Positions 1 to 11,601 of a DNA stretch of 14,762 bases are shown piece by piece. The translations under genes were made by a program, and so were the position numbers. Origin of the DNA: a virus; the UHGV virus genome UHGV-0206032, one strand, 5' to 3'. The stretch's first letter is position 1. Each line of letters begins with the position of its first letter. The notes under the pieces are model-generated. The model ran no database searches. It worked only from the letters and a program-made list of their open reading frames with translations, and was not told the DNA's origin.

Positions 1-1263
1 ATGGCGGTCTCACACGGCTCCTTGCCATTCAAAGAACAGATCGACTATTTCCGTGGCAAGGTCGACCTACCGACTCGCGCATGGACTGACGCTTACGCTG
101 CTGAACACGACTATGCCTTTGTCGTGGCGGGTGCTGCGAAGCGGGATCTGCTGACCGACCTGCGGGGTGCCGTAGAGAAGTCCATCGCCAGCGGCACCAC
201 CCTGGAGCAGTTCCGCAAAGACTTTGACCAGGTCGTCGGTAAACACGGCTGGCAGTACCAGGGCGAGCGCGGTTGGCGCACCAATGTCATCTGGGAGACC
301 AACCTGCGCCAGTCGTACAACGCGGGCCGCGAAGCCCAAATGGCTGACCCGGAGTTGCGCAAACGCCGTCCCTATGCGGTCTATCGTCATGGCGACAGCG
401 CGCACCCACGGCCAATGCACTTGTCCTGGAACGGCATCACGCTGCCGCTCGATGACCCCTGGTGGGCAACTCATACCCCGCAAAACGGCTGGGGCTGTAA
501 GTGCAAAAAATTCATGCTCTCGGCCAGGGACGTTGAACGCCAAGGGCTGACGATTGGTCCGGCACCGGCCACTGAATGGGAAGATCGGGTCATTGGCCAG
601 AACAGTCCTGACGGACCACGCACAGTGCGAGTGCCCAAGGGCATTGATCCAGGCTTTGAATATGCACCTGGTCAATCACGCCTGACGAACTCCGTGCCCC
701 AGCTGCGCACCCGCGACTTGATACCAGCACCATCAGCAGCTCCGGTACCGGCAATAGGTTTACCCAACCGTCAGCCCACCGGTCCTTTGCCGCAACCTCG
801 ACAAATCCCAGCAAAGCGCCTGCTCCCGGCCAAAGTGTCTGCCCCCCAGGCAGTGACTCAGTTCCTGGGCGAGTTCGGTGCCACGGATGCCACTCCGGCT
901 GTGTTCCGTGATGTGACCGGTGATGCCCTGGTCATCGGGCGGGCGATGTTCAGTGATGCCAAAACCGGCGCAATAGCATTGGCCCAACAAGTCAAGGCCC
1001 GCGAGTTACCGTTGTTGGCTGAAGCCATTAAGGCACCTGATGAGATCTGGGCGCGCTTGGAATGGCAGCCAGATCAAGGCAAAGCGGTGTTGCGCCGTCG
1101 TTACCTGGCGCACGTCCAGGTCAAAGGGAGGGCTGATCCAGCTGTTGCTGTATTCGACCAGGGCGCAGATGGCTGGACCGGCGTTACAGGGTTTGTAGAT
1201 GACAGCGAGCAGTACCTTGAGGCATTGCGCCTGGGTGTCCTGCTTTACCGGCGTACCGAATAG
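1..1263 (+). CDS. Phage head morphogenesis protein, MuF (Mu gp30) family, with Pro-rich linker and C-terminal domain
   Basis: 420-aa ORF starting at window position 1. N-terminal ~230 aa resemble the MuF/SPP1 gp7 head morphogenesis domain as I recall it (DYAFVVAGA...DLLTDLR, NVIWETNLRQSYNAGR, PYAVYRHGDSAHPRPMHLSWNG, NGWGCKCK). RBS GGGAG for the next gene overlaps its stop. True start could lie upstream of the window. Confidence 0.8.
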   Translation: MAVSHGSLPFKEQIDYFRGKVDLPTRAWTDAYAAEHDYAFVVAGAAKRDLLTDLRGAVEKSIASGTTLEQFRKDFDQVVGKHGWQYQGERGWRTNVIWETNLRQSYNAGREAQMADPELRKRRPYAVYRHGDSAHPRPMHLSWNGITLPLDDPWWATHTPQNGWGCKCKKFMLSARDVERQGLTIGPAPATEWEDRVIGQNSPDGPRTVRVPKGIDPGFEYAPGQSRLTNSVPQLRTRDLIPAPSAAPVPAIGLPNRQPTGPLPQPRQIPAKRLLPAKVSAPQAVTQFLGEFGATDATPAVFRDVTGDALVIGRAMFSDAKTGAIALAQQVKARELPLLAEAIKAPDEIWARLEWQPDQGKAVLRRRYLAHVQVKGRADPAVAVFDQGADGWTGVTGFVDDSEQYLEALRLGVLLYRRTE

Positions 1264-1272
1264 GGAGCAGAC

Positions 1273-1836
1273 ATGGCTGGTTCAATGCTTGAGGTATCCC
1301 TCGATACAAGCCCAGTAGGCAAGGCTCTGGACGATCTGGTCGAGCGACTAGGCGACCTGACAACGCCGCTCAATGACATCGCCGAATACCTGCACCAATC
1401 GACTGATGACCGCTTTCGTCAGCAGGTAGCCCCGGATGGTTCGCCCTGGGCGCCACTTGCGCCCTCAACTTTGGCACGTAAGAAGGGAGGCCGCATCCTC
1501 CGCGCCAAGGGCACGCTTCAGGACACACTGCGTCACAACGTCAGCAACAATGAGCTGTCTTTCGGTACTGACCGACCATACGGTGCCATTCACCAGCTCG
1601 GTGGTAAGGTCCAGCATGCGGCCAGGTCACAGCAGGTCTACTTCCGTCAGGGTAAAGATGGATCGGTGGGCAACCGCTTTGTGAAGAAGAGCAAGTCCAA
1701 CTTTGCGCAGTGGGTCACCCGTGGTGCGCATGACTCCGAGATCAAGGCAAGACCCTACCTGGGCCTATCATCAGACGACGATATCGAGATACTGGCGATC
1801 ATCCAGGACTACCTTATGGCGCCAATAACAGAGTAA
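1273..1836 (+). CDS. Phage virion morphogenesis protein (Mu G / gp31-like)
   Basis: 187-aa ORF immediately after the MuF gene, with RBS GGGAGCAG 6 nt upstream of ATG. Size and position match Mu G; sequence resembles the virion morphogenesis family from memory. Confidence 0.7.
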   Translation: MAGSMLEVSLDTSPVGKALDDLVERLGDLTTPLNDIAEYLHQSTDDRFRQQVAPDGSPWAPLAPSTLARKKGGRILRAKGTLQDTLRHNVSNNELSFGTDRPYGAIHQLGGKVQHAARSQQVYFRQGKDGSVGNRFVKKSKSNFAQWVTRGAHDSEIKARPYLGLSSDDDIEILAIIQDYLMAPITE

Positions 1837-2087
1837 CGATGCAGAATCACGCAGGCGCTCTGATAGCGGCTTACGGGTACATCCGTCACCTGTGGATTGG
1901 TTAAACAGCGTTAGACCTGCGTTAGATTCAGTTGTAGCGGTATTGATAACGTCTTCGCGAGATATCGTGCGGCCATTCTCTACATATAAAATGAATTCAC
2001 CGCGCACTCATTCTCGTCCTTCCCCAGGCAAAAACCTTGCGCGGTCCTGAAATTACTTTCATTTAAGTACCCGCCGACACTGGCGGC
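1837..2087 (+). promoter_or_regulatory. Intergenic region, candidate internal late promoter/operator (analogous in position to Mu P_I)
   Basis: Only sizeable non-coding gap in the window (251 bp) and AT-richer than its flanks. Contains direct repeat GCGTTAGA x2 (1908-1915, 1919-1926), inverted repeat ACCGCGCA / TGCGCGGT (1999-2006 / 2038-2045) and a GC hairpin CCGCC-N6-GGCGG (2071-2086) abutting the ATG of the next gene. In Mu a C-dependent late promoter sits upstream of gene I. Confidence 0.3.
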
Positions 2088-3062
2088 ATGAAAACTCAAC
2101 TCGCCGCTAACTCAGAAATTTACAGCTCCGTCGAGCTTTCCGATGGGAAGGCCCCCGACTGGGTTGAACTTATCCCCGCAGGTCCGACCGTCACCGGTCG
2201 TGATGGCCGTGCCTGGCTGTTCGATGACATGGCCACCGAACTGGTGCAGTCCAATTTCATCAGTCGAGCAATCGATCTGGTCATTGACCGGGAGCACGCC
2301 ACACAGCTCCGTGCATCCGTTGGCCAGGAAGCCCCAGCCGGTGCCTGGGTCAAACAATTCGAAATCCGCGATGGCGCTCTGTGGGGTCGCGTTGAATGGA
2401 CGCCTCGCGGTGCTGCTCAGGTCGAGGCCAAAGAGTATCGCTACCTATCCCCAGTGTTCGACTACGACCTCGACAACAAACGCATCGTGCGCATGGTCAG
2501 CGCGGCGCTGACCAATATCCCCAACCTCATCATGACCGCCCTCAACCAAGAAGCCCCGGAGAACACACCAGTGAAACTTTCAGCTGCGTTTTTGGCACTG
2601 CTCGGCCTGCCCGACACCGCCACTGAAGAACAGGCCATGTCGGCCGCAAGCCAACTCAAAACTACCGCCCAGGCCGCCAACACCGAACAGCCAAACTTGG
2701 CGCAGTTCGTCCCGCGTGCGGACTACGACGCCCTGGTCGGCCGTGCCACCAACGCCGAACAGGCGCTGGCCAGCCAGAAGAAGGCCGAGCACGACAAGGA
2801 AGTCGATGCAGTCATCATCTCGGCTACTAAGGCCGGAAAGATCACCCCATCCACCGTCGAGTACCACCGCGCCATGTGCCATGACGAAGCGGGCCTGGCG
2901 CGTTTCAAAGATTTTGTGACAGCGGCCCCTGTCGTGGCTGCGGCATCGGAACTGGGCAACAGGAACCCCGCGAATACCGGCACGGCTCTCAACGCCGAGG
3001 AACAAAAGGTCGCATCGTTGCTGGGTATGAGCGAAGCGGAATTCATCAAGGGCAAGGCGTAA
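2088..3062 (+). CDS. Prohead protease / scaffold protein (Mu I / gp32-like)
   Basis: 324-aa ORF. N-terminal half resembles Mu I-type protease (GKAPDWVELIPAGP...GRDGRAWLFDD); C-terminal half is Ala/Gln/Glu-rich and scaffold-like. Lies directly upstream of the major capsid gene, as in Mu. Confidence 0.8.
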   Translation: MKTQLAANSEIYSSVELSDGKAPDWVELIPAGPTVTGRDGRAWLFDDMATELVQSNFISRAIDLVIDREHATQLRASVGQEAPAGAWVKQFEIRDGALWGRVEWTPRGAAQVEAKEYRYLSPVFDYDLDNKRIVRMVSAALTNIPNLIMTALNQEAPENTPVKLSAAFLALLGLPDTATEEQAMSAASQLKTTAQAANTEQPNLAQFVPRADYDALVGRATNAEQALASQKKAEHDKEVDAVIISATKAGKITPSTVEYHRAMCHDEAGLARFKDFVTAAPVVAAASELGNRNPANTGTALNAEEQKVASLLGMSEAEFIKGKA

Positions 3063-3090: not shown

Positions 3091-3984
3091 ATGATCATTA
3101 ACGCCAGTGTCTTGAACGCGCTGTTTGTTGCGTACAAGGCCGAGTTCCAAAACGCGCAGGCCGCGACACCGACCGACTGGAAGCGTATCGCCACGCCGGT
3201 CCCGTCCTCATCGGCCAGCAATACCTATGGCTGGCTGGGTCAGTTCCCGATGTTCCGTGAGTGGATCGGCGACCGTGTTCTCAAAAACATGGCAGCGCAT
3301 GGCTACTCCATCACCAACAAGAAGTTTGAGTCCTCGGTGGGTGTCCCACGTGATGCCATCGAAGACGACGAGATCGGCGTTTATAAGCCGCTGTTTGCCG
3401 AAATGGGGCGTGCTTCCAGTGCGCACCCGGACGAGCTGGTATTCGCGCTGCTCAAAGCGGGCTTGACCACCACCTGTTACGACGGCCAGTACTTCTTCGA
3501 TACTGATCATCCGGTCTACCCGTCGACCGATGCGTCTGGCACGGCGGTTTCCGTCAGCAACTATCAAGACGGTACAGGCCCGGCCTGGTATCTGCTCGAT
3601 GTCAGCCGCGCCCTGAAACCCATCATCTTTCAGAACCGTCGCAACTACGATCTGAAAGCGATGACCGCAATGGACGACGAAAGCGTATTCATGCGCGACG
3701 AATACCGCTATGGCGTGGATGCCCGGGTGAACGTCGGCTTCGGCTTCTGGCAGTTCGCTTACTGCTCAAAAGCCCCACTGACCGCCGAGAATTACGGCCT
3801 GGCTCGCGCAGCCATGAAGAACTTCCAGGCCGATGGCGGTCGCCCTTTGGGCATCAACCCCGGCCTCCTGGTTGTTCCATCCCAACTGGAAGGCGCTGCT
3901 CGCAAGATCCTGGTCAAGGATGCGGACAACGGCAACGAATGGGCAGGCACCGCCGAAGTACTTGCACCGGCCTGGCTGGGCTAA
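3091..3984 (+). CDS. Major capsid (head) protein, Mu T / gp34-like
   Basis: 297-aa ORF with strong RBS AGGAAGAG upstream. Size and position after the protease/scaffold gene match Mu T; sequence is consistent with the Mu-like major head subunit family from memory. Confidence 0.8.
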   Translation: MIINASVLNALFVAYKAEFQNAQAATPTDWKRIATPVPSSSASNTYGWLGQFPMFREWIGDRVLKNMAAHGYSITNKKFESSVGVPRDAIEDDEIGVYKPLFAEMGRASSAHPDELVFALLKAGLTTTCYDGQYFFDTDHPVYPSTDASGTAVSVSNYQDGTGPAWYLLDVSRALKPIIFQNRRNYDLKAMTAMDDESVFMRDEYRYGVDARVNVGFGFWQFAYCSKAPLTAENYGLARAAMKNFQADGGRPLGINPGLLVVPSQLEGAARKILVKDADNGNEWAGTAEVLAPAWLG

Positions 3985-5793: not shown

Positions 5794-6890
5794 GCATTTC
5801 CTTTGACACCATCCCGGCGTCGATTCGCAAGCCGGGCGTTTACATTGAGTTCAACACCAGCCTGGCGGTACGGACGCTGCCCACCAACAAGCAGAGTGTC
5901 TGCCTGATCGTGCCCCTGGGCGTCGATGCTACTGTTGCGGCCAACGTGCCTACGCCGTTCTACAGCGCAGCCGAGGCCAAAGCCTTGTTCGGCGGGACAG
6001 TGGCCGAGGAAATGGCGGACGCGTTTATCACCGCCTATCGGTACGCCTCCATCTCGGCCGTAGGTGTGGTGGTCGAGGGCGAAACAGAACCCGACATCAA
6101 GGCTGCTTTGGACTCGACCGCCATGGGTGGTTTCACCATCCTGGTGCCTGCCTGGTTTAGCCAGGTCGCACTCACTGCATTGCGCACGCACATCCAGACC
6201 TACACCAGTTCGATGGAGCAACAGGGAATCATCGGTGTGGCGGCGCTGACCAGCACCTTGTCGGCCGCGACCACGTTGGCCACGTCGCTGAACTCCGGCG
6301 CAATCAGCTTGGCAGTCCTGCCGGGAACTGCATCGACTGCGCGCCAGGTAGCCGCCGCGTATGCCGCGATGATCGCCTCGGAAGAAGATCCAGCGCGGCC
6401 GCTGAATACCCTGGTGTTGACTGGTATCAAGGTTCCGCCGGTCACTCAGCGTCTCGGTCGTACAGAGCAGGAAACGGCGCTGGCCAATGGTGTCACGCCG
6501 CTGGAGGTTGCGGCCGGTGATGTCATCCAGATCGTCCGTGCAGTGACCACCTACACCAAGTCTGCTGCTGGTGCCACGGACGTGTCGCTGCTGGATTTGA
6601 CCACTATCCGCACTCTGTATTACGTGCGTGTGGCCATTCGTGACCGCATCCGGCTGCGCTTCCCACGCTCGAAACTCTCCAGCAAGACGCCTGCGGCTGT
6701 TCGTGGCGAGATCCTGGACGTACTCAAGAAGCTGGAAGAGTTGGAAATCGTCGAAGAGGTGGACGCCAACGCCGATGGTCTGGTGGTTGAGCGTTCACTC
6801 CAGGACGTAAACCGCCTCAATGCAACCATTCCTGTCGATGTAGTCAACGGCCTGCATGTGTTCGCCGGTCGCATTGACCTGCTCCTGTAA
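5790..6890 (+). CDS. Tail sheath protein (Mu L-like)
   Basis: 366-aa ORF. N-terminus (TIPASIRKPGVYIEFNTSLA) matches the characteristic sheath N-terminal pattern; followed by a ~120-aa tube gene, as expected for contractile tails. Confidence 0.7.
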   Translation: MSISFDTIPASIRKPGVYIEFNTSLAVRTLPTNKQSVCLIVPLGVDATVAANVPTPFYSAAEAKALFGGTVAEEMADAFITAYRYASISAVGVVVEGETEPDIKAALDSTAMGGFTILVPAWFSQVALTALRTHIQTYTSSMEQQGIIGVAALTSTLSAATTLATSLNSGAISLAVLPGTASTARQVAAAYAAMIASEEDPARPLNTLVLTGIKVPPVTQRLGRTEQETALANGVTPLEVAAGDVIQIVRAVTTYTKSAAGATDVSLLDLTTIRTLYYVRVAIRDRIRLRFPRSKLSSKTPAAVRGEILDVLKKLEELEIVEEVDANADGLVVERSLQDVNRLNATIPVDVVNGLHVFAGRIDLLL

Positions 6891-7666: not shown

Positions 7667-7788
7667 AAGAGCTTCGCCAGATGACCAGGGCCGAGATCGA
7701 TGCACGTATTGATCTGATCATCGGCAAGGTCAAAGGCACCCGCTATGTCAGTCAGCGCCAGCGCAAGGCGTTGCCTAAACCCAAATGA
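7280..7788 (+). CDS. Tail assembly chaperone, predicted -1 frameshift fusion product (slip at 7585-7591)
   Basis: After a -1 slip on A_AAA_AAG the -1 frame stays open for 65 codons (ARAAERGNVDWRRIEHAFVRHGYRLEELRQMTRAEIDARIDLIIGKVKGTRYVSQRQRKALPKPK) to TGA at 7786-7788, ending just before the tape measure start. Mirrors the conserved G/GT-type frameshift of long-tailed phages. Confidence 0.5.
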
Positions 7789-7843
7789 CAGGCTCGACAC
7801 CGGGCCTTTCCTGTCCCTGTAAGTCCGTTTCCGGGAGTTATCC

Positions 7844-10261: not shown

Positions 10262-11601
10262 GCTGGGCAGAGAACCTGCTGGACGCTTCCTTCCGTGGCG
10301 TCCCGCTCCAAGTAGAAGGCGAAAGCCTACAATGGCAACGCGCCCTGTCTGAGCATGGGACGCCGTTCAAGGATGGCGACCGGGTCAAAGACCTGGGCCG
10401 TGGTGCGCGCCGTATCCCCATGCAAGTAGTGGTGTTCGGCGTCAATTACGAGATCGAACTCCAGAACATCCTCCGTACCTTGAATACACCAGGTACGGGC
10501 GAACTGATCCACCCGATCTACGGCAGCATGAATGTCGTCAGCAGCACCGGCGAGGTAAAGCACAGCGCCGAGCGGCCAGACTATGCCGAGATCAGCATAG
10601 TGTTTGTTGAGGACACGCCCGACGCTCCATTCTTCGACCGGCAGTTTGAATTTGTCGATGTCGGCGTATTGGGGTTGGAGGATGAATACACCTGGCAGGA
10701 TGGCATCTTCGATCTGTTCGGCCGTATTGATTCCCTGGTCGGCGAGATTCAATCGTGGATCGGCGGGGGCTGGGTAGGACTGATCGAAAAGGCCCTGGGC
10801 TTGCCTGGCATTGGCCTGCGCTTGCAACAGCTGCGCTCGCAGATCATGGGTGTGGTGTCCGGCGTCGGGTCGATGGCCAAGCGGCCATCAGGGGCGTTTG
10901 ATCCCCTGGTCGACCTGATGCGCACACCCTCGGAGATCCGAGGCGCCATCCAGGGCAGCACGCCCAGTTCGTCAACGACGCTACTAGCTCGCACTGGCGT
11001 ACCCGTTAGCTTGCCTGGTAATGCCAGCCTGGTGGCGGATGCTGCGCGTGCGGGTACTGGCTTTCTGATAGGTGCCCGACAAGGTGTGGCACCCACCGTC
11101 GGCCTGCTGATCGACGGCGTACCGACCAATGCGGGCAGCGCCCTGGTGCTGCTGCCCGACGGAATGCCGGATGATCCGGTTACCGCTAACGGTTTCGCCC
11201 TGGTCGTCCTGGTCATCACTGAACTGGCACTGGCTCACGCCCAGGCGGTAGCCACCGTCATCGAGGACGAAGCCGATACGCCGACGTTGAGTCCATTAGA
11301 GCTGGAAGGCCTGGTTAATTTGGTGCGCTCGCTGGTGCAGTCGTCCATCCTTCTACAACGTCACCTTTTCGACGTAGAGACCGCACTGCCGATCATTGAT
11401 GCATTGCGCAACGTCGCCGCGTTGATCCAGGCCCGCGCCCGTCAAGTCATTTTGCAAAGTCCTCCGATGCTTGAGCGGGTGGTTGAGACGCCTGCAAGCC
11501 TACATTTGCTGGCTCACCGCTGGTATGGCGGGCCGAGTGGAAGGAAAAGGTCGAAGCGGCCGCTGCTCGCGTCGACAAGATCGCCAAAAAAGGCGGCATG
11601 A
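10258..11601 (+). CDS. DNA circulation protein (Mu N / gp43-like)
   Basis: 447-aa ORF. N-terminus (ASFRGVPLQVEG, LGRGARRIP, GTGELIHPIYGS) matches the DNA circulation protein N-terminal domain as recalled for Mu N. The 3' end is uncertain: its last ~40 codons overlap other frames (see findings). Confidence 0.75.
   Translation: MSWAENLLDASFRGVPLQVEGESLQWQRALSEHGTPFKDGDRVKDLGRGARRIPMQVVVFGVNYEIELQNILRTLNTPGTGELIHPIYGSMNVVSSTGEVKHSAERPDYAEISIVFVEDTPDAPFFDRQFEFVDVGVLGLEDEYTWQDGIFDLFGRIDSLVGEIQSWIGGGWVGLIEKALGLPGIGLRLQQLRSQIMGVVSGVGSMAKRPSGAFDPLVDLMRTPSEIRGAIQGSTPSSSTTLLARTGVPVSLPGNASLVADAARAGTGFLIGARQGVAPTVGLLIDGVPTNAGSALVLLPDGMPDDPVTANGFALVVLVITELALAHAQAVATVIEDEADTPTLSPLELEGLVNLVRSLVQSSILLQRHLFDVETALPIIDALRNVAALIQARARQVILQSPPMLERVVETPASLHLLAHRWYGGPSGRKRSKRPLLASTRSPKKAA

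What the first reader, a model, noticed from the sequence alone, without database searches (positions are those of the whole stretch)
1837..2087. Only large intergenic gap: repeat-rich candidate regulatory region upstream of the protease gene
The operon is otherwise tightly coupled, but here there is a 251-bp AT-richer gap. It holds a direct repeat GCGTTAGA spaced 11 bp (one helical turn), an 8-bp inverted repeat ACCGCGCA ... TGCGCGGT separated by ~31 bp, a TATAAA element (1985-1990), and a GC hairpin (CCGCC-GACACT-GGCGG, 2071-2086) covering the weak SD-like GGCGG just before the ATG. It is positioned like the Mu internal late promoter. A 78-codon minus-strand ORF (1771-2007) also crosses the gap and could be a small antisense gene.
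Basis: partly seen in the sequence, partly recalled or inferred. Interest (0 to 1): 0.4.

Follow-up and report, generated by a model that had tools for sequence, protein, structure and literature searches.

The report
Central control gap of Mu-like prophage
The 251-bp gap is the conserved centre-of-genome control region of a Mu-like transposable prophage of Pseudomonas: it ends in a late promoter for the head genes, and it starts with a strongly conserved, undescribed pair of CGTTAGA repeats at the position of phage Mu's strong gyrase site.

Summary
Only some are more than chance. The window is the late region of a Mu-like prophage (F, G, gap, I protease, T capsid, tail); relatives are Pseudomonas prophages.

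The right ~55 nt is a Mor/C-type late promoter, the Mu P_I analogue: activator box 2036-2057, -10-like hexamer GACACT 2076-2081, ATG 6 nt later. In relatives the same box and hexamer recur at the same spacing upstream of the lysis operon. The box differs between phages but matches within each phage.

The GCGTTAGA direct repeat is not part of this promoter. It occurs once per genome, its centre about 80-90 nt after the G stop, in either orientation, in 178 distinct sequences including JBD30, DMS3 and MP38. More distant lineages carry GCGTTTATAAACGC at the same place. Mu's annotated gyrase cut site and right arm lie at the same position, so a strong-gyrase-site equivalent is my best reading. It is unproven.

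The 93 nt between these two modules is a cargo slot. Relatives hold defence-like genes there, and JBD30 holds acrF1-aca1 in the same G-I gap.

The 8-bp inverted repeat and the minus-strand ORF are chance.

The parts
1837..2087 (+). G-I central intergenic region of a Mu-like prophage. It has three modules: centre site, variable slot, late promoter.
   Evidence: Pfam and PHROG hits for the flanking genes. A gap of 187-295 bp is kept in 60 of 77 related loci, even where G is only 34-50% identical. The gap lies at 48-55% of 19 contigs of 32-37 kb (coordinates). In Mu the G-I gap is 196 bp.
1841..1854 (+). GCAGAATCACGCAG. Weak candidate for a gyrase cleavage core, by position and 11/14 identity to the Mu cut-site sequence ACAGAATCAG|GCAT.
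   Evidence: The Mu record annotates 'gyrase cut site' at 17879/17880, 20 nt after the G stop. The window match starts 5 nt after the G stop. As a whole-window match it is not significant (3 found, 1.03 expected); only the shared position is notable. The CAGAATC / TAGAATC / TGTAATC / CAGGATC variants are kept in close relatives only.
1876..1885 (+). GGTACATCCG, a conserved block about 30 nt upstream of the repeats.
   Evidence: GGTACA(T/A)CCG is conserved in the alignment of 20 short gaps. The exact 10-mer was found 25 times, always in the gap.
1899..1928 (+). Phased repeat module: degenerate GGTTAAA (1899-1905), GCGTTAGA (1908-1915), GCGTTAGA (1919-1926), then TT. This is the hallmark element.
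   Evidence: Exact 8-mer at 11-bp spacing. One pair per locus, always in the G-I gap, in all relatives with G identity of at least 56%, in 13 Pseudomonas genome loci of 20 kb, and in Casadabanvirus JBD30/DMS3/MP38/LPB1/CF53c. 178 distinct pairs were collected. The pair centre lies 71-94 nt after the G stop in both orientations. No conserved RNA structure.
1929..2021 (+). Variable slot. Homology to long-gap relatives stops at 1928 and resumes near 2079.
   Evidence: BLAST breakpoints. 17 loci carry 0.9-1.7 kb with plus-strand cargo ORFs here, after the repeats in all that have them. TATAGAATGG was found 24 times, always in gaps. No conserved ORF.
1999..2006 (+). Judged to be chance.
   Evidence: Confirmed. 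Not conserved in any relative.
2036..2057 (+). Late-activator (Mor/C-type) box CTTGCGCGGTCCTGAAATTACT. Its predicted centre at 2044/2045 would be -43.5.
   Evidence: The homologous box in relatives (for example TTCTTAAACCCCGCTGATACTCA) recurs 460-560 nt downstream of the Mor-family gene, ahead of the lysis genes, in 10 of 21 distinct phages. Distant phages have their own dyad box at 2-3 late promoters, and so does JBD30. The centre lies 31.5 nt upstream of the hexamer, which matches the published -43.5 for Mu C (PMC2582627).
2071..2086 (+). Inverted repeat CCGCC / GGCGG bracketing the -10-like hexamer GACACT (2076-2081). GGCGGC forms a GC-rich stretch between the hexamer and the ATG.
   Evidence: A hexamer of type (C/G)AnnCT or CAnnAT lies 6-7 nt before the I ATG in nearly all non-Mu lineages examined (a few distant loci fit less cleanly), always flanked by a GC inverted repeat of varying sequence. 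A similar hexamer sits at the same spacing from the box at the lysis-operon promoters.
2088..2090 (+). ATG of the I protease/scaffold gene. It is the predicted transcription start (within 1-2 nt) of the P_I transcript, that is, a leaderless or near-leaderless mRNA.
   Evidence: Inferred from the 6-nt hexamer-to-ATG spacing and the absence of a usable Shine-Dalgarno sequence. Duplex energy is -4.8 kcal/mol with irregular pairing, while most neighbouring genes show GGAG/GAGG.
1771..2007 (-). 78-codon minus-strand ORF. Rejected as a gene.
   Evidence: Interrupted by 1-2 stops in L003, L008, L009, L010 and L011, whose G is 95-97% identical. No Pfam or PHROG match.

Best explanation
The gap is the composite central control region of a Mu-like transposable prophage of Pseudomonas. 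It has three modules.

(1) Right end, 2036-2088: an activator-dependent late promoter, the analogue of Mu P_I. A dimer of the phage's single Mor/C-family activator binds the box 2036-2057, centred about 43.5 nt upstream of the start. It lets sigma-70 RNA polymerase use the -35-less hexamer GACACT (2076-2081). Transcription starts at or within 1-2 nt of the A of the I ATG, so the head operon mRNA has essentially no leader. The GC inverted repeat is part of the promoter DNA (it supplies the GC-rich stretch between hexamer and start); it is not an SD-masking hairpin in this transcript.

(2) Left part, about 1841-1946: a DNA-level, orientation-independent centre-of-genome site. Its hallmark is the phased pair GCGTTAGA-N3-GCGTTAGA. 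I read it as the equivalent of the Mu strong gyrase site. Host gyrase would cleave shortly after the G stop. The GC-flanked, TpA-containing repeats, about 60-75 nt to the right of that point and 11 bp apart, would form the distal right arm that wraps on the GyrA C-terminal domain. This would drive processive supercoiling that helps pair the prophage ends for replicative transposition.

(3) Between them, 1929-2021: a tolerated insertion slot. It is empty in this window. In relatives it is filled with defence or anti-defence genes.

What is shown: the conservation, the uniqueness, the position, the within-genome repetition of the promoter box, and the presence of a Mor-family gene in relatives. 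What is inferred: the start point, activator dependence, and any role of gyrase.
For: Promoter:
- In L083 (G 96% identical) a Mor-family gene (Pfam Mor, 1.2e-19) is followed by a hairpin plus T-run that looks like an intrinsic terminator (by eye). Then comes TTCTTAAACCCCGCTGATACTCA-N19-GAAGCT ahead of the holin and SLT lysin genes. The G-I gap has the identical 23-mer, N19, then CAGACT.
- The same pattern holds in 10 of 21 distinct phages.
- L093, L094, L095 and JBD30 each have their own box sequence repeated at 2-3 late promoters with constant spacing.
- The box centre lies 31.5 nt upstream of the hexamer, equal to the -43.5 reported for Mu C. Mu late promoters have a -10 but no -35 (PMC2582627). 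Mu P_I lies in the same gap (PMC4461284).
- The I gene has no usable SD.

Centre site:
- The Mu record places the gyrase cut 20 nt after the G stop, inside the G-I gap.
- The gap lies at 48-55% of 19 near-full-length contigs.
- The CGTTAGA pair is unique per genome. Its centre is 71-94 nt from the G stop in both orientations, 24 in the same orientation and 9 inverted.
- No RNA structure and no Rfam hit.
- In lineages without the pair, TTTATAAA (as GCGTTTATAAACGC) occurs once per locus in 20 of 22 loci, 66-114 nt after the G stop, and nowhere else in 251.5 kb.
- Mu has ATTTTTTAAAA and GATTTTTAAACCGG in its right arm.
- The literature says the Mu right arm is essential and carries phased bending repeats (PMC10052514). 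Gyrase arms show 10.75-bp GC/AT periodicity out to +66 (PMC6379681).

Slot.
Against: - No gyrase data exist for these phages.
- My two surrogate tests failed to recover the real Mu site. These were an S/W match to the published gyrase consensus and A/T periodicity. They say nothing either way.
- The similarity to the Mu cut site is only 11/14 and is not significant window-wide.
- A PWM of the repeat does not pick out the Mu site.
- Exact conservation of a 7-mer across hosts of very different GC content looks more like base-specific recognition by a dedicated protein than indirect readout by gyrase.
- The same heptamer occurs singly in the early leader between the Pe-like promoter and the ner-like gene in many of these phages and in JBD30. 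The gyrase model does not explain this.
- For the promoter, no second box copy could be shown for the window's own box variant, because the lysis region is outside the window. In 11 of 21 phages the ungapped search found no second copy.
- The leaderless start is inferred from spacing alone. In Mu itself, by my reading of the published P_I oligonucleotide design, the start lies about 27-30 nt upstream of the I ATG.
Confidence: 0.55

Rival explanations
1. The CGTTAGA pair is a binding site for a dedicated sequence-specific protein, not for gyrase. The binder would act as tandem monomers on 11-bp direct repeats, in the winged-helix style. Candidates are the transposase N-terminal Mu-type DNA-binding domain (an enhancer-like centre site), the Ner-like protein, the 146-aa regulator encoded after ner, or a conserved host factor. 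The same protein would also bind the single CGTTAGAC in the early leader.
For: - The heptamer is invariant in both units across 178 distinct pairs, while the spacers and flanks vary.
- The same heptamer sits about 13-20 nt downstream of the Pe-like -10 and upstream of the ner-like gene, in phages whose operators and Ner (49-100% identical) differ, and in JBD30.
- In many of these phages, though not in JBD30, it is also kept about 25 nt inside the next ORF through a rare TTA codon.
- The family's transposase carries Pfam HTH_Tnp_Mu_1 (6e-16), while the repressor is CI/LexA-like. Any transposase enhancer sites therefore cannot be the repressor operators.
- A 7-bp unit plus 4-bp spacer is the geometry of tandem winged-helix sites (my own knowledge).
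Against: - No binder is identified.
- The early-leader variant does not covary with the centre pair.
- The pair works in either orientation relative to the genes and keeps a fixed distance from the G stop. This fits a positioned architectural site.
- Other lineages have a different, palindromic AT-rich element at the same place. A single conserved binder would then have to have changed specificity, or the role is structural.
Confidence: 0.3
2. The repeats are the operator or activator site of a second promoter inside the gap. That promoter (-10 near TATTGA 1941-1946 or TAAAAT 1987-1992) would drive the cargo genes in relatives and would be a relic in this empty slot. This is analogous to the acr promoter with its Aca1 operators in JBD30.
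For: - Cargo ORFs are all on the plus strand and lie downstream of the repeats.
- A -10-like (T/G)ATAGAAT is conserved about 68 nt after the repeats in short-gap loci, and also in L024 ahead of its cargo ORF.
- Pseudomonas Mu-like phages are known to carry a promoter-led accessory operon between these two head genes (PMC3993853; JBD30 annotation).
Against: - In JBD30, DMS3 and LPB1 the repeats lie downstream of acr-aca1, not upstream. MP38 has the repeats with no cargo.
- In 9 loci the pair is inverted relative to the genes.
- No -35 or -10 lies at a fixed distance from the repeats across lineages, and the consensus scan finds no promoter.
- No regulator gene travels with the repeats.
Confidence: 0.1
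3. The gap encodes a small RNA or a small protein (for example the 78-codon antisense ORF), or a cis-acting RNA structure in the late transcript, and the repeats are part of that product.
For: The region is conserved and non-coding by standard criteria. The heptamer in the early leader could in principle be a pairing target for an antisense RNA from the centre.
Against: - The minus-strand ORF is broken in near-identical relatives.
- No conserved small plus-strand ORF.
- No Rfam hit down to E=10 other than noise.
- RNAalifold finds no consensus structure in 68 sequences, and the fold z-scores are -0.2 and -0.8.
- No promoter or terminator signals on either strand.
- The orientation of the pair flips between lineages.
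Confidence: 0.04

Closest known systems
Bacteriophage Mu late promoter P_I (C-dependent; family Plys, PI, PP, Pmom)
   Same: - Same genomic place, directly upstream of the I protease/scaffold gene.
- A -10-like hexamer ending in CT (Mu Plys TAGACT by my reading of the published oligonucleotide; the PI hexamer could not be fixed), and no -35.
- An activator box containing AACCCC-like sequence (Mu CATAACCCC; relatives TTAAACCCC; JBD30 TTGAACCCC), centred about -43.5.
- The same box at the lysis-operon promoter.
- A Mor/C-family activator encoded next to gemA.
   Different: - Only one Mor/C-family gene was found, so the cascade appears to have two tiers rather than Mu's Mor then C.
- The box sequence differs, and in this window it is a further variant (CTTGCGCGGTCCTGAAAT).
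- The hexamer lies 6 nt from the ATG, implying a leaderless start, whereas by my reading of the published oligonucleotide design Mu P_I starts about 27-30 nt upstream of the ATG.
- No P_P analogue lies within the 14.7-kb window.
[quoted passage not shown]
   Same: - Lies in the G-I intergenic gap at the genome centre.
- The Mu cut is 20 nt after the G stop, and the window has a similar 14-mer 5 nt after the stop.
- The functional arm lies to the right, toward I, and contains GC-flanked AT/TpA elements in helical phase.
- One per genome.
   Different: - No cleavage or binding data.
- The conserved element here is an exact repeated heptamer, not Mu's A/T tracts.
- Core similarity is weak.
- A review notes that, of the alternative gyrase sites Pato tested, only the SGS of the closely related E. 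coli O157:H7 Sakai Mu-like prophage could replace the Mu SGS (PMC10052514). Function therefore cannot be assumed from position.
- The two Oram and Pato papers could not be read here.
Anti-CRISPR locus / 'RGP G' accessory hotspot of Pseudomonas aeruginosa Mu-like phages (JBD30, DMS3, D3112)
   Same: - Same insertion point, between the G-like gene and the protease/scaffold gene.
- The same CGTTAGA repeat module and the same late-promoter architecture are present in those phages.
- Relatives of the window carry other accessory genes in the slot.
   Different: - The window's slot is empty.
- Cargo in the window's family lies after the repeats, whereas in JBD30 it lies before them.
- The cargo types differ (weak HEPN-like and nucleoside-deoxyribosyltransferase-like matches, DUF4062, Bro-N) and are not known Acr/Aca proteins.
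- No Aca1-type operators.
Tandem direct-repeat boxes of winged-helix regulators (for example Pho box, CtrA box TTAA-N7-TTAA; recalled from memory)
   Same: A 7-bp unit repeated with a 4-bp spacer, giving one helical turn from centre to centre.
   Different: Not placed at a fixed distance from any -10 element. The orientation relative to neighbouring genes flips. No response-regulator gene is associated with it.

Membership tests
Mu-type Mor/C-dependent late promoter (P_I) | Located directly upstream of the I (protease/scaffold) gene of a Mu-like late region | tested here: met
   Gene identities from Pfam and PHROGs. The Mu layout is shown.
Mu-type Mor/C-dependent late promoter (P_I) | Recognisable -10-like hexamer without a -35 hexamer | tested here: met
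   GACACT at 2076-2081 has A at position 2 and T at position 6. No TTGACA-like hexamer lies 16-18 nt upstream. The sigma-70 consensus scan found nothing. Hexamers of the same type occur in nearly all lineages.
Mu-type Mor/C-dependent late promoter (P_I) | Activator site (imperfect dyad) centred at about -43.5 | tested here: inconclusive
   The geometry fits: the box centre is 31.5 nt upstream of the hexamer in L093, JBD30, L083 and the window. The dyad is clear in distant phages (TTTTTGC..GCAAAAA; GAAnnnnTTC). It is weak in the window's box (4 of 8 symmetric positions). No start site has been mapped.
Mu-type Mor/C-dependent late promoter (P_I) | Same box present at the other late promoters of the same genome | tested here: met
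   Shown in relatives only: 10 of 21 distinct phages plus L093-L095 and JBD30. It cannot be shown for the window itself, because its lysis region is outside the window and no second copy lies inside it.
Mu-type Mor/C-dependent late promoter (P_I) | Phage encodes a Mor/C-family activator | tested here: met
   L083 1290-1727 matches Pfam Mor at 1.2e-19, next to GemA. 57 related viral loci carry it. JBD30 gp21 is annotated as a late transcriptional activator.
Mu-type Mor/C-dependent late promoter (P_I) | Transcription depends on the activator | not testable with these tools
   Needs reporter or in vitro transcription assays.
Mu strong gyrase site (SGS) | Single site at the genome centre, in the G-I intergenic region | tested here: met
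   The gap lies at 48-55% of 19 contigs of 32-37 kb. The pair is unique per locus.
Mu strong gyrase site (SGS) | Efficient gyrase cleavage at a defined 4-bp stagger | not testable with these tools
   The only evidence is 11/14 identity to the Mu cut-site 14-mer at the same offset from the G stop, which is weak.
Mu strong gyrase site (SGS) | Extended right arm with phased anisotropic bending signals | tested here: inconclusive
   By eye, TTAAA / TTAGA / TTAGA / TTGTA / TTGATAA recur every 10-11 bp from 1901 to 1949. However, the periodicity statistic does not separate even the real Mu site from background (13th percentile), and the consensus-match scan also failed on Mu.
Mu strong gyrase site (SGS) | Required for rapid replicative transposition; promotes processive supercoiling | not testable with these tools
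   Needs deletion or replacement genetics and gyrase biochemistry.
Accessory-gene hotspot between G and protease (acr locus / RGP G) | Variable genes inserted between the conserved G-like and protease genes | tested here: met
   Met for the locus type. 17 relatives carry 0.9-1.7 kb inserts: DUF4062 at 1.7e-29, Bro-N at 7e-7, and HEPN-like and Nuc_deoxyrib_tr-like matches below the Pfam cut-offs. JBD30 carries acrF1-aca1. The window itself carries no cargo.
Accessory-gene hotspot between G and protease (acr locus / RGP G) | Own promoter with Aca operators and a downstream aca gene | tested here: not met
   The window's gap has no ORF and nothing resembling the JBD30 acr-promoter inverted repeats visible.
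Small RNA or cis-regulatory RNA | Conserved secondary structure or a match to a described RNA family | tested here: not met
   Rfam gives only noise (best E=3.1). RNAalifold gives no structure on 68 sequences, and z-scores are -0.2 and -0.8.
Small antisense protein gene | Open frame conserved in close relatives | tested here: not met
   Stops are present in L003, L008, L009, L010 and L011.

The most novel reading that the evidence does not exclude
The phased CGTTAGA pair, with its lineage-specific counterparts such as GCGTTTATAAACGC, is a previously unrecognised, nearly universal 'centre element' of transposable (Mu-like) phages. It would be read by a specific protein, for example the transposase's Mu-type N-terminal DNA-binding domain or a conserved host factor. 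It would physically connect the genome centre to the early control region, where the same heptamer sits in the Pe leader. It would then be a new cis-acting component of transposable-phage chromosome organisation, acting with or instead of a strong gyrase site. It would lie right next to the anti-CRISPR locus of the JBD30/DMS3 model phages.
Probability: 0.25. Interest if true: 0.8.

Novelty: new variant of a known kind. Interest (0 to 1): 0.55.

Why it matters
If the repeats mark a gyrase site, they would give a sequence-defined signature for strong gyrase sites outside E. coli phage Mu. A review records that only one alternative site, from a close Mu relative, has been found that can replace the Mu SGS (PMC10052514). 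The signature would offer a ready set of natural variants for studying how DNA sequence programs gyrase wrapping.

If a dedicated protein binds the repeats instead, this would be a new cis element of transposable-phage replication or chromosome organisation.

Either way the module sits beside the anti-CRISPR operon in the JBD30/DMS3/D3112 model phages. It is conserved at 87-100% identity in 122 deposited genomes and has no functional annotation there beyond scattered 'hypothetical protein' or 'terminator' calls.

The promoter analysis gives a testable map of late promoters for Pseudomonas Mu-like phages. It predicts a leaderless head-operon mRNA. It also defines the boundaries of a natural cargo slot that could be used for engineering.

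Tried and rejected
- I scanned with the S/W pattern of the published 133-bp gyrase consensus (PMC6379681 supplement). It did not recover the Mu SGS, which scored -13.8 at rank about 64,000. The real position matrix (table DS10) is truncated in the held file.
- I computed A/T periodograms. The Mu right arm reached only the 13th percentile and the window's arm the 5-13th, so the test does not discriminate.
- I built a PWM of the 11-nt unit from exact matches. It is too strict to detect degenerate copies, and the Mu SGS was not recovered.
- Rfam with permissive thresholds gave only noise.
- RNAalifold and fold z-scores on the left part found no structure.
- I first aligned a 'TCCCC box' in the window with Mu's CCCCAG. 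I abandoned this when the within-genome repeats showed that the real box is the CTTAAACCCC-type element.
- I first took GATACT/ATTACT as the -10 element. I rejected this because it is part of the conserved activator box, and the -43.5 geometry points to the hexamer next to the ATG.
- I looked for a second copy of the window's own box inside the window and found none.
- A regex search for boxes downstream of mor found nothing in the 9 of the 11 non-matching phages that I checked.
- I tested for covariation between the early-leader heptamer variants and the centre pair. None was consistent.
- By eye, the sequence shows no match to IHF, DnaA-box, sigma-54, ops/RfaH, CRISPR-repeat (RNA anti-CRISPR) or Cas12a-repeat patterns.
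- A literature search for the heptamer returned only primer sequences.
- The Oram and Pato 2004 and 2006 papers are not held.
Full report
**What the window is.** The window encodes, on the plus strand:
- a Mu F-like protein (1-1263; Phage_Mu_F plus a C-terminal PBECR2 domain);
- a Mu G-like protein (1273-1836; Phage_tail_S, 1e-32);
- the 251-bp gap;
- the Mu I protease/scaffold (2088-3062; Mu-like_Pro, 3e-64);
- the T major head protein (3091-3984);
- gp36- and gp37-like proteins, the sheath and further tail genes.

Thirteen related genome loci were found. Twelve are in Pseudomonas species and one is in Dyella. The nearest cultured phages are Stenotrophomonas phages and Pseudomonas phage B3, with G about 45% identical.

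**Checking the observation.** The gap is AT-richer, GC 0.47 against 0.55-0.63 in the flanks. A simple consensus scan finds no sigma-70 promoter and no intrinsic terminator on either strand. Rfam finds nothing. Whether each feature means anything had to be decided by comparison with relatives.

**Comparative material.** I collected:
- 77 viral contigs carrying a G homologue;
- 13 genome loci with 10-kb flanks;
- 57 viral loci reached through the Mor-family protein, which cover the left half of the same phages;
- phage Mu, JBD18, JBD30, DMS3, MP38, LPB1 and CF53c from annotated records;
- 78 further loci found by scanning IMG/VR for the exact repeat pair.

A G-I gap of 187-295 bp is kept in 60 of the 77 contigs, even where G is 34-50% and I about 28% identical. 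Seventeen loci instead have 0.9-1.7 kb. From the contig coordinates, the gap lies at 48-55% of 19 contigs of 32-37 kb. That is the genome centre, as in Mu (17.9 of 36.7 kb).

**The right end is the late promoter.** The last 55-60 nt before the I ATG have the same architecture in every lineage, including the long-gap loci. There is a box, then 19-22 nt, then a hexamer of type (C/G)AnnCT or CAnnAT. The hexamer is bracketed by a GC inverted repeat, and the ATG follows 6-7 nt later.

In L083 (G 96% identical) a Mor-family gene lies next to gemA. It is followed by a hairpin plus T-run that looks like an intrinsic terminator by eye. Then comes TTCTTAAACCCCGCTGATACTCA-N19-GAAGCT ahead of the holin and lysin genes. 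The G-I gap of the same genome has the identical 23-mer, N19, and CAGACT.

The best second match of the P_I box lies 460-560 nt after the mor gene in 10 of 21 distinct phages. More distant phages have entirely different boxes:
- TTTTTGCCCCGTCAAAA in L093;
- TTTTTGCGCCCGCAAAAA in L094;
- GCAGCGACGCGTGTCGC in a Dyella prophage.

Each of these is repeated at two or three late promoters of its own genome, with constant spacing to the hexamer. JBD30 shows the same pattern with GTTGAACCCCTTCC. A box that differs between genomes but is identical within a genome is what an activator site should look like.

The box centre lies 31.5 nt upstream of the hexamer, which puts it at -43.5. This is the position reported for the Mu C dyad at promoters that have a -10 but no -35 (PMC2582627). 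Mu's own P_I lies in the same gap (PMC4461284). Its conserved CATAACCCC resembles the TTAAACCCC and TTGAACCCC of the Pseudomonas phages.

In the window the box is CTTGCGCGGTCCTGAAATTACT (2036-2057) and the hexamer is GACACT (2076-2081).

The ATG follows 6 nt after the hexamer, and the I gene has no usable Shine-Dalgarno sequence. I therefore infer that the P_I transcript starts at or next to the A of the ATG. This step is inferred, not shown. It differs from Mu, where my reading of the published oligonucleotide design puts the start about 27-30 nt upstream of the ATG.

**The direct repeat is a different and much more conserved thing.** Homology between the window and its long-gap relatives runs from G through GCGTTAGACCTGCGTTAGAT and stops there. 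It resumes about 10 nt before the ATG.
- CGTTAG-N5-CGTTAG occurs exactly once per locus, always in the G-I gap. This holds in every relative with G identity of at least 56% and in 10 of the 13 genome loci of 20 kb; the other three have G 42-51% identical.
- It is absent from the lysis-operon promoter and from the rest of the left half of these phages. It is therefore not the late-activator site.
- It is also present in the Casadabanvirus model phages. JBD30, DMS3, LPB1, CF53c and MP38 carry GCGTTAAccc-CGTTAGAaccc-CGTTAGAaatcgctccagcgCCATTCG in a 182-nt spacer upstream of the protease gene. That spacer is 87-100% identical in 122 deposited genomes. It carries no functional annotation there beyond scattered 'hypothetical protein' or 'terminator' calls.
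At least 44 of the 78 new loci have F, G or protease homologues next to the pair, including phages from AT-rich hosts. Some of the remaining hits must be chance, because 14 specified bases are expected by chance hundreds of times in that collection.
- Among G-adjacent loci the pair is in the window's orientation in 24 and inverted in 9. Its centre stays 71-94 nt from the G stop in both classes.
- No RNA structure is conserved.

Position kept, orientation free, one copy per genome, at the genome centre: this describes a DNA-level architectural site.

**Link to the Mu strong gyrase site.** The Mu record annotates the gyrase cut at 17879/17880. That is 20 nt after the G stop, inside the G-I gap.
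- The SGS is needed for fast replicative transposition and must be central. Its right arm, toward I, is essential and carries phased bending repeats (PMC10052514; PMC3820752).
- Genome-wide mapping shows that the arms of gyrase sites alternate GC and AT with a 10.75-bp period out to +66 (PMC6379681).
- The window has GCAGAATCAC|GCAG 5 nt after the G stop, against Mu's ACAGAATCAG|GCAT. That is 11 of 14 identical. It is not significant on its own and is notable only for its position.
- If cleavage occurs there, the repeats lie at about +58 to +76. By eye, TTAAA, TTAGA, TTAGA, TTGTA and TTGATAA then follow one another every 10-11 bp.
- Lineages that lack CGTTAGA have a different element at the same place. 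TTTATAAA, usually as GCGTTTATAAAC(G/A)C, occurs once per locus in 20 of 22 distinct loci, 66-114 nt after the G stop. It occurs nowhere else in 251.5 kb. In the one long-gap locus of this group it precedes the cargo.
- JBD18 has GCTTTATAAATCG at about +83. Mu has ATTTTTTAAAA and GATTTTTAAACCGG in its right arm.

This is the best-supported reading of the left part of the gap, but it is not demonstrated. My two surrogate gyrase tests failed on the Mu positive control, so they count neither for nor against.

**What does not fit the gyrase reading.** The heptamer is conserved exactly, which suggests base-specific recognition. The same CGTTAGA(C) also occurs singly, on the plus strand, about 13-20 nt downstream of the Pe-like -10 and upstream of the ner-like gene.
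- It is found there in phages whose operators differ and whose Ner is 49-100% identical, and in JBD30, where it is the only copy in the first 12 kb.
- In many of these phages it also sits about 25 nt inside the next ORF, kept through a rare TTA codon. This is not so in JBD30.
- The repressor of this family is CI/LexA-like, while the transposase carries the Mu-type N-terminal DNA-binding domain. A transposase-bound, enhancer-like site is therefore a serious rival. So are the Ner-like protein and a host factor.
- Variants of the early-leader copy do not covary with the centre pair.

**The middle is a cargo slot.** Positions 1929-2021 are replaced in 17 relatives by plus-strand ORFs of several unrelated kinds:
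- DUF4062 proteins (1.7e-29);
- a Bro-N protein;
- HEPN-like and nucleoside-deoxyribosyltransferase-like proteins, both below the Pfam cut-offs.

In JBD30 the G-I gap holds acrF1-aca1. [quoted passage not shown] In that phage group the cargo lies before the repeats rather than after them.

Short-gap relatives share blocks in this stretch (ACGTCTnCGCGAGAC; the palindrome CCCCATTCTCTACGTATAGAATGGG), which the window keeps only in degraded form. The role of these blocks is open. A weak rightward promoter is possible, since L024 has GATAGAAT ahead of its cargo ORF.

**Rejected items.** The 8-bp inverted repeat is not conserved, and about 0.5 such repeats are expected by chance. Its right arm merely lies in the activator box. 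The minus-strand ORF carries stops in relatives whose G is 95-97% identical.

**Verdict.** It is a hallmark of the genome centre in many transposable phages, including heavily studied ones, and I found no description of it. It is probably part of a strong-gyrase-site equivalent, and possibly a site for a dedicated protein.

Noticed in passing
L103 845-851 and 1265-1271; L154 (JBD30) 1018-1024; about 25 further loci: The heptamer CGTTAGA(C) of the central repeat also occurs singly in the early leader, between a Pe-like promoter (TTTACC-N17-TATGTT) and the ner-like gene. It is followed by CCCAAAAAAACCACCC and a hairpin. This holds in phages with different operators. In many of them, though not in JBD30, it also sits about 25 nt inside the next ORF, kept through a rare TTA codon.
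   Followed up: partly
L001 3831-4784; L013 6768-7550; L044 6726-7784; L059 6993-7724; L028 6653-7270: The G-I slot of relatives carries unrelated single-gene cargos on the plus strand: DUF4062 (1.7e-29), Bro-N, and HEPN-like (RiboL-PSP / HEPN_RES_NTD1) and nucleoside-2-deoxyribosyltransferase-like proteins (both below the Pfam cut-offs), plus one ORF with no match. They look like defence or anti-defence genes at the position of the JBD30 anti-CRISPR locus.
   Followed up: partly
L147 about 10927-10990; L154 (JBD30) about 10640-10707: The first gene of the lysis/late operon in some phages has the same promoter architecture as I, with the ATG 6-7 nt after the hexamer (for example GCCGCCACGATGGCGGCATG in JBD30). 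The predicted leaderless start may therefore apply to more than one late operon.
   Followed up: no
window 1-1263: The Mu F-like protein carries a C-terminal PBECR2 domain (phage Barnase-EndoU-ColicinE5/D-RelE-like nuclease; 7.9e-26) in addition to Phage_Mu_F.
   Followed up: no
window 7667-7843: This is a second ORF-free stretch of 177 nt, between the 128-aa ORF and the 805-aa ORF (my guess: tail chaperone and tape-measure protein; not tested). It sits where Mu-like phages express a frameshifted chaperone extension, so it is probably not a true intergenic gap.
   Followed up: no
L001 5845-6240: The relative MT835710 has an extra 131-aa ORF between I and T that the window lacks (the window has 28 nt there). 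This is the position of the head-decoration 'gene h' / RGP H described for Pseudomonas Mu-like phages (PMC4378225).
   Followed up: no
L200 about 1600-1730; L191 6318-6422; L185; L221; L195; L206/L215: Some viral contigs with no G or I homologue in the stored stretch carry longer arrays (4-6 or more units) of the same 11-bp unit (C/G)CGTTAGA. Their context is unknown and some may be chance.
   Followed up: no
L153 2330-2338 (JBD30): An inverted copy, AATCTAACG (reverse complement CGTTAGATT), lies just after the second inverted repeat (TAGGCACAATGTGCCTA) of the acr promoter region; I take these to be the Aca1 sites from memory. The acr-aca1 cassette is thus flanked by the motif in opposite orientations. 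This may be chance.
   Followed up: no
L054 6565-6590; L033 about 6565-6590; L153 2840-2865; L080 2400-2415: AAACGCGC(C/T)A recurs within about 40 nt after the G stop in several lineages. In JBD30 it sits at the start of the conserved spacer that follows aca1. Mu has AAAACGCGCCACGGG in the SGS right arm.
   Followed up: no
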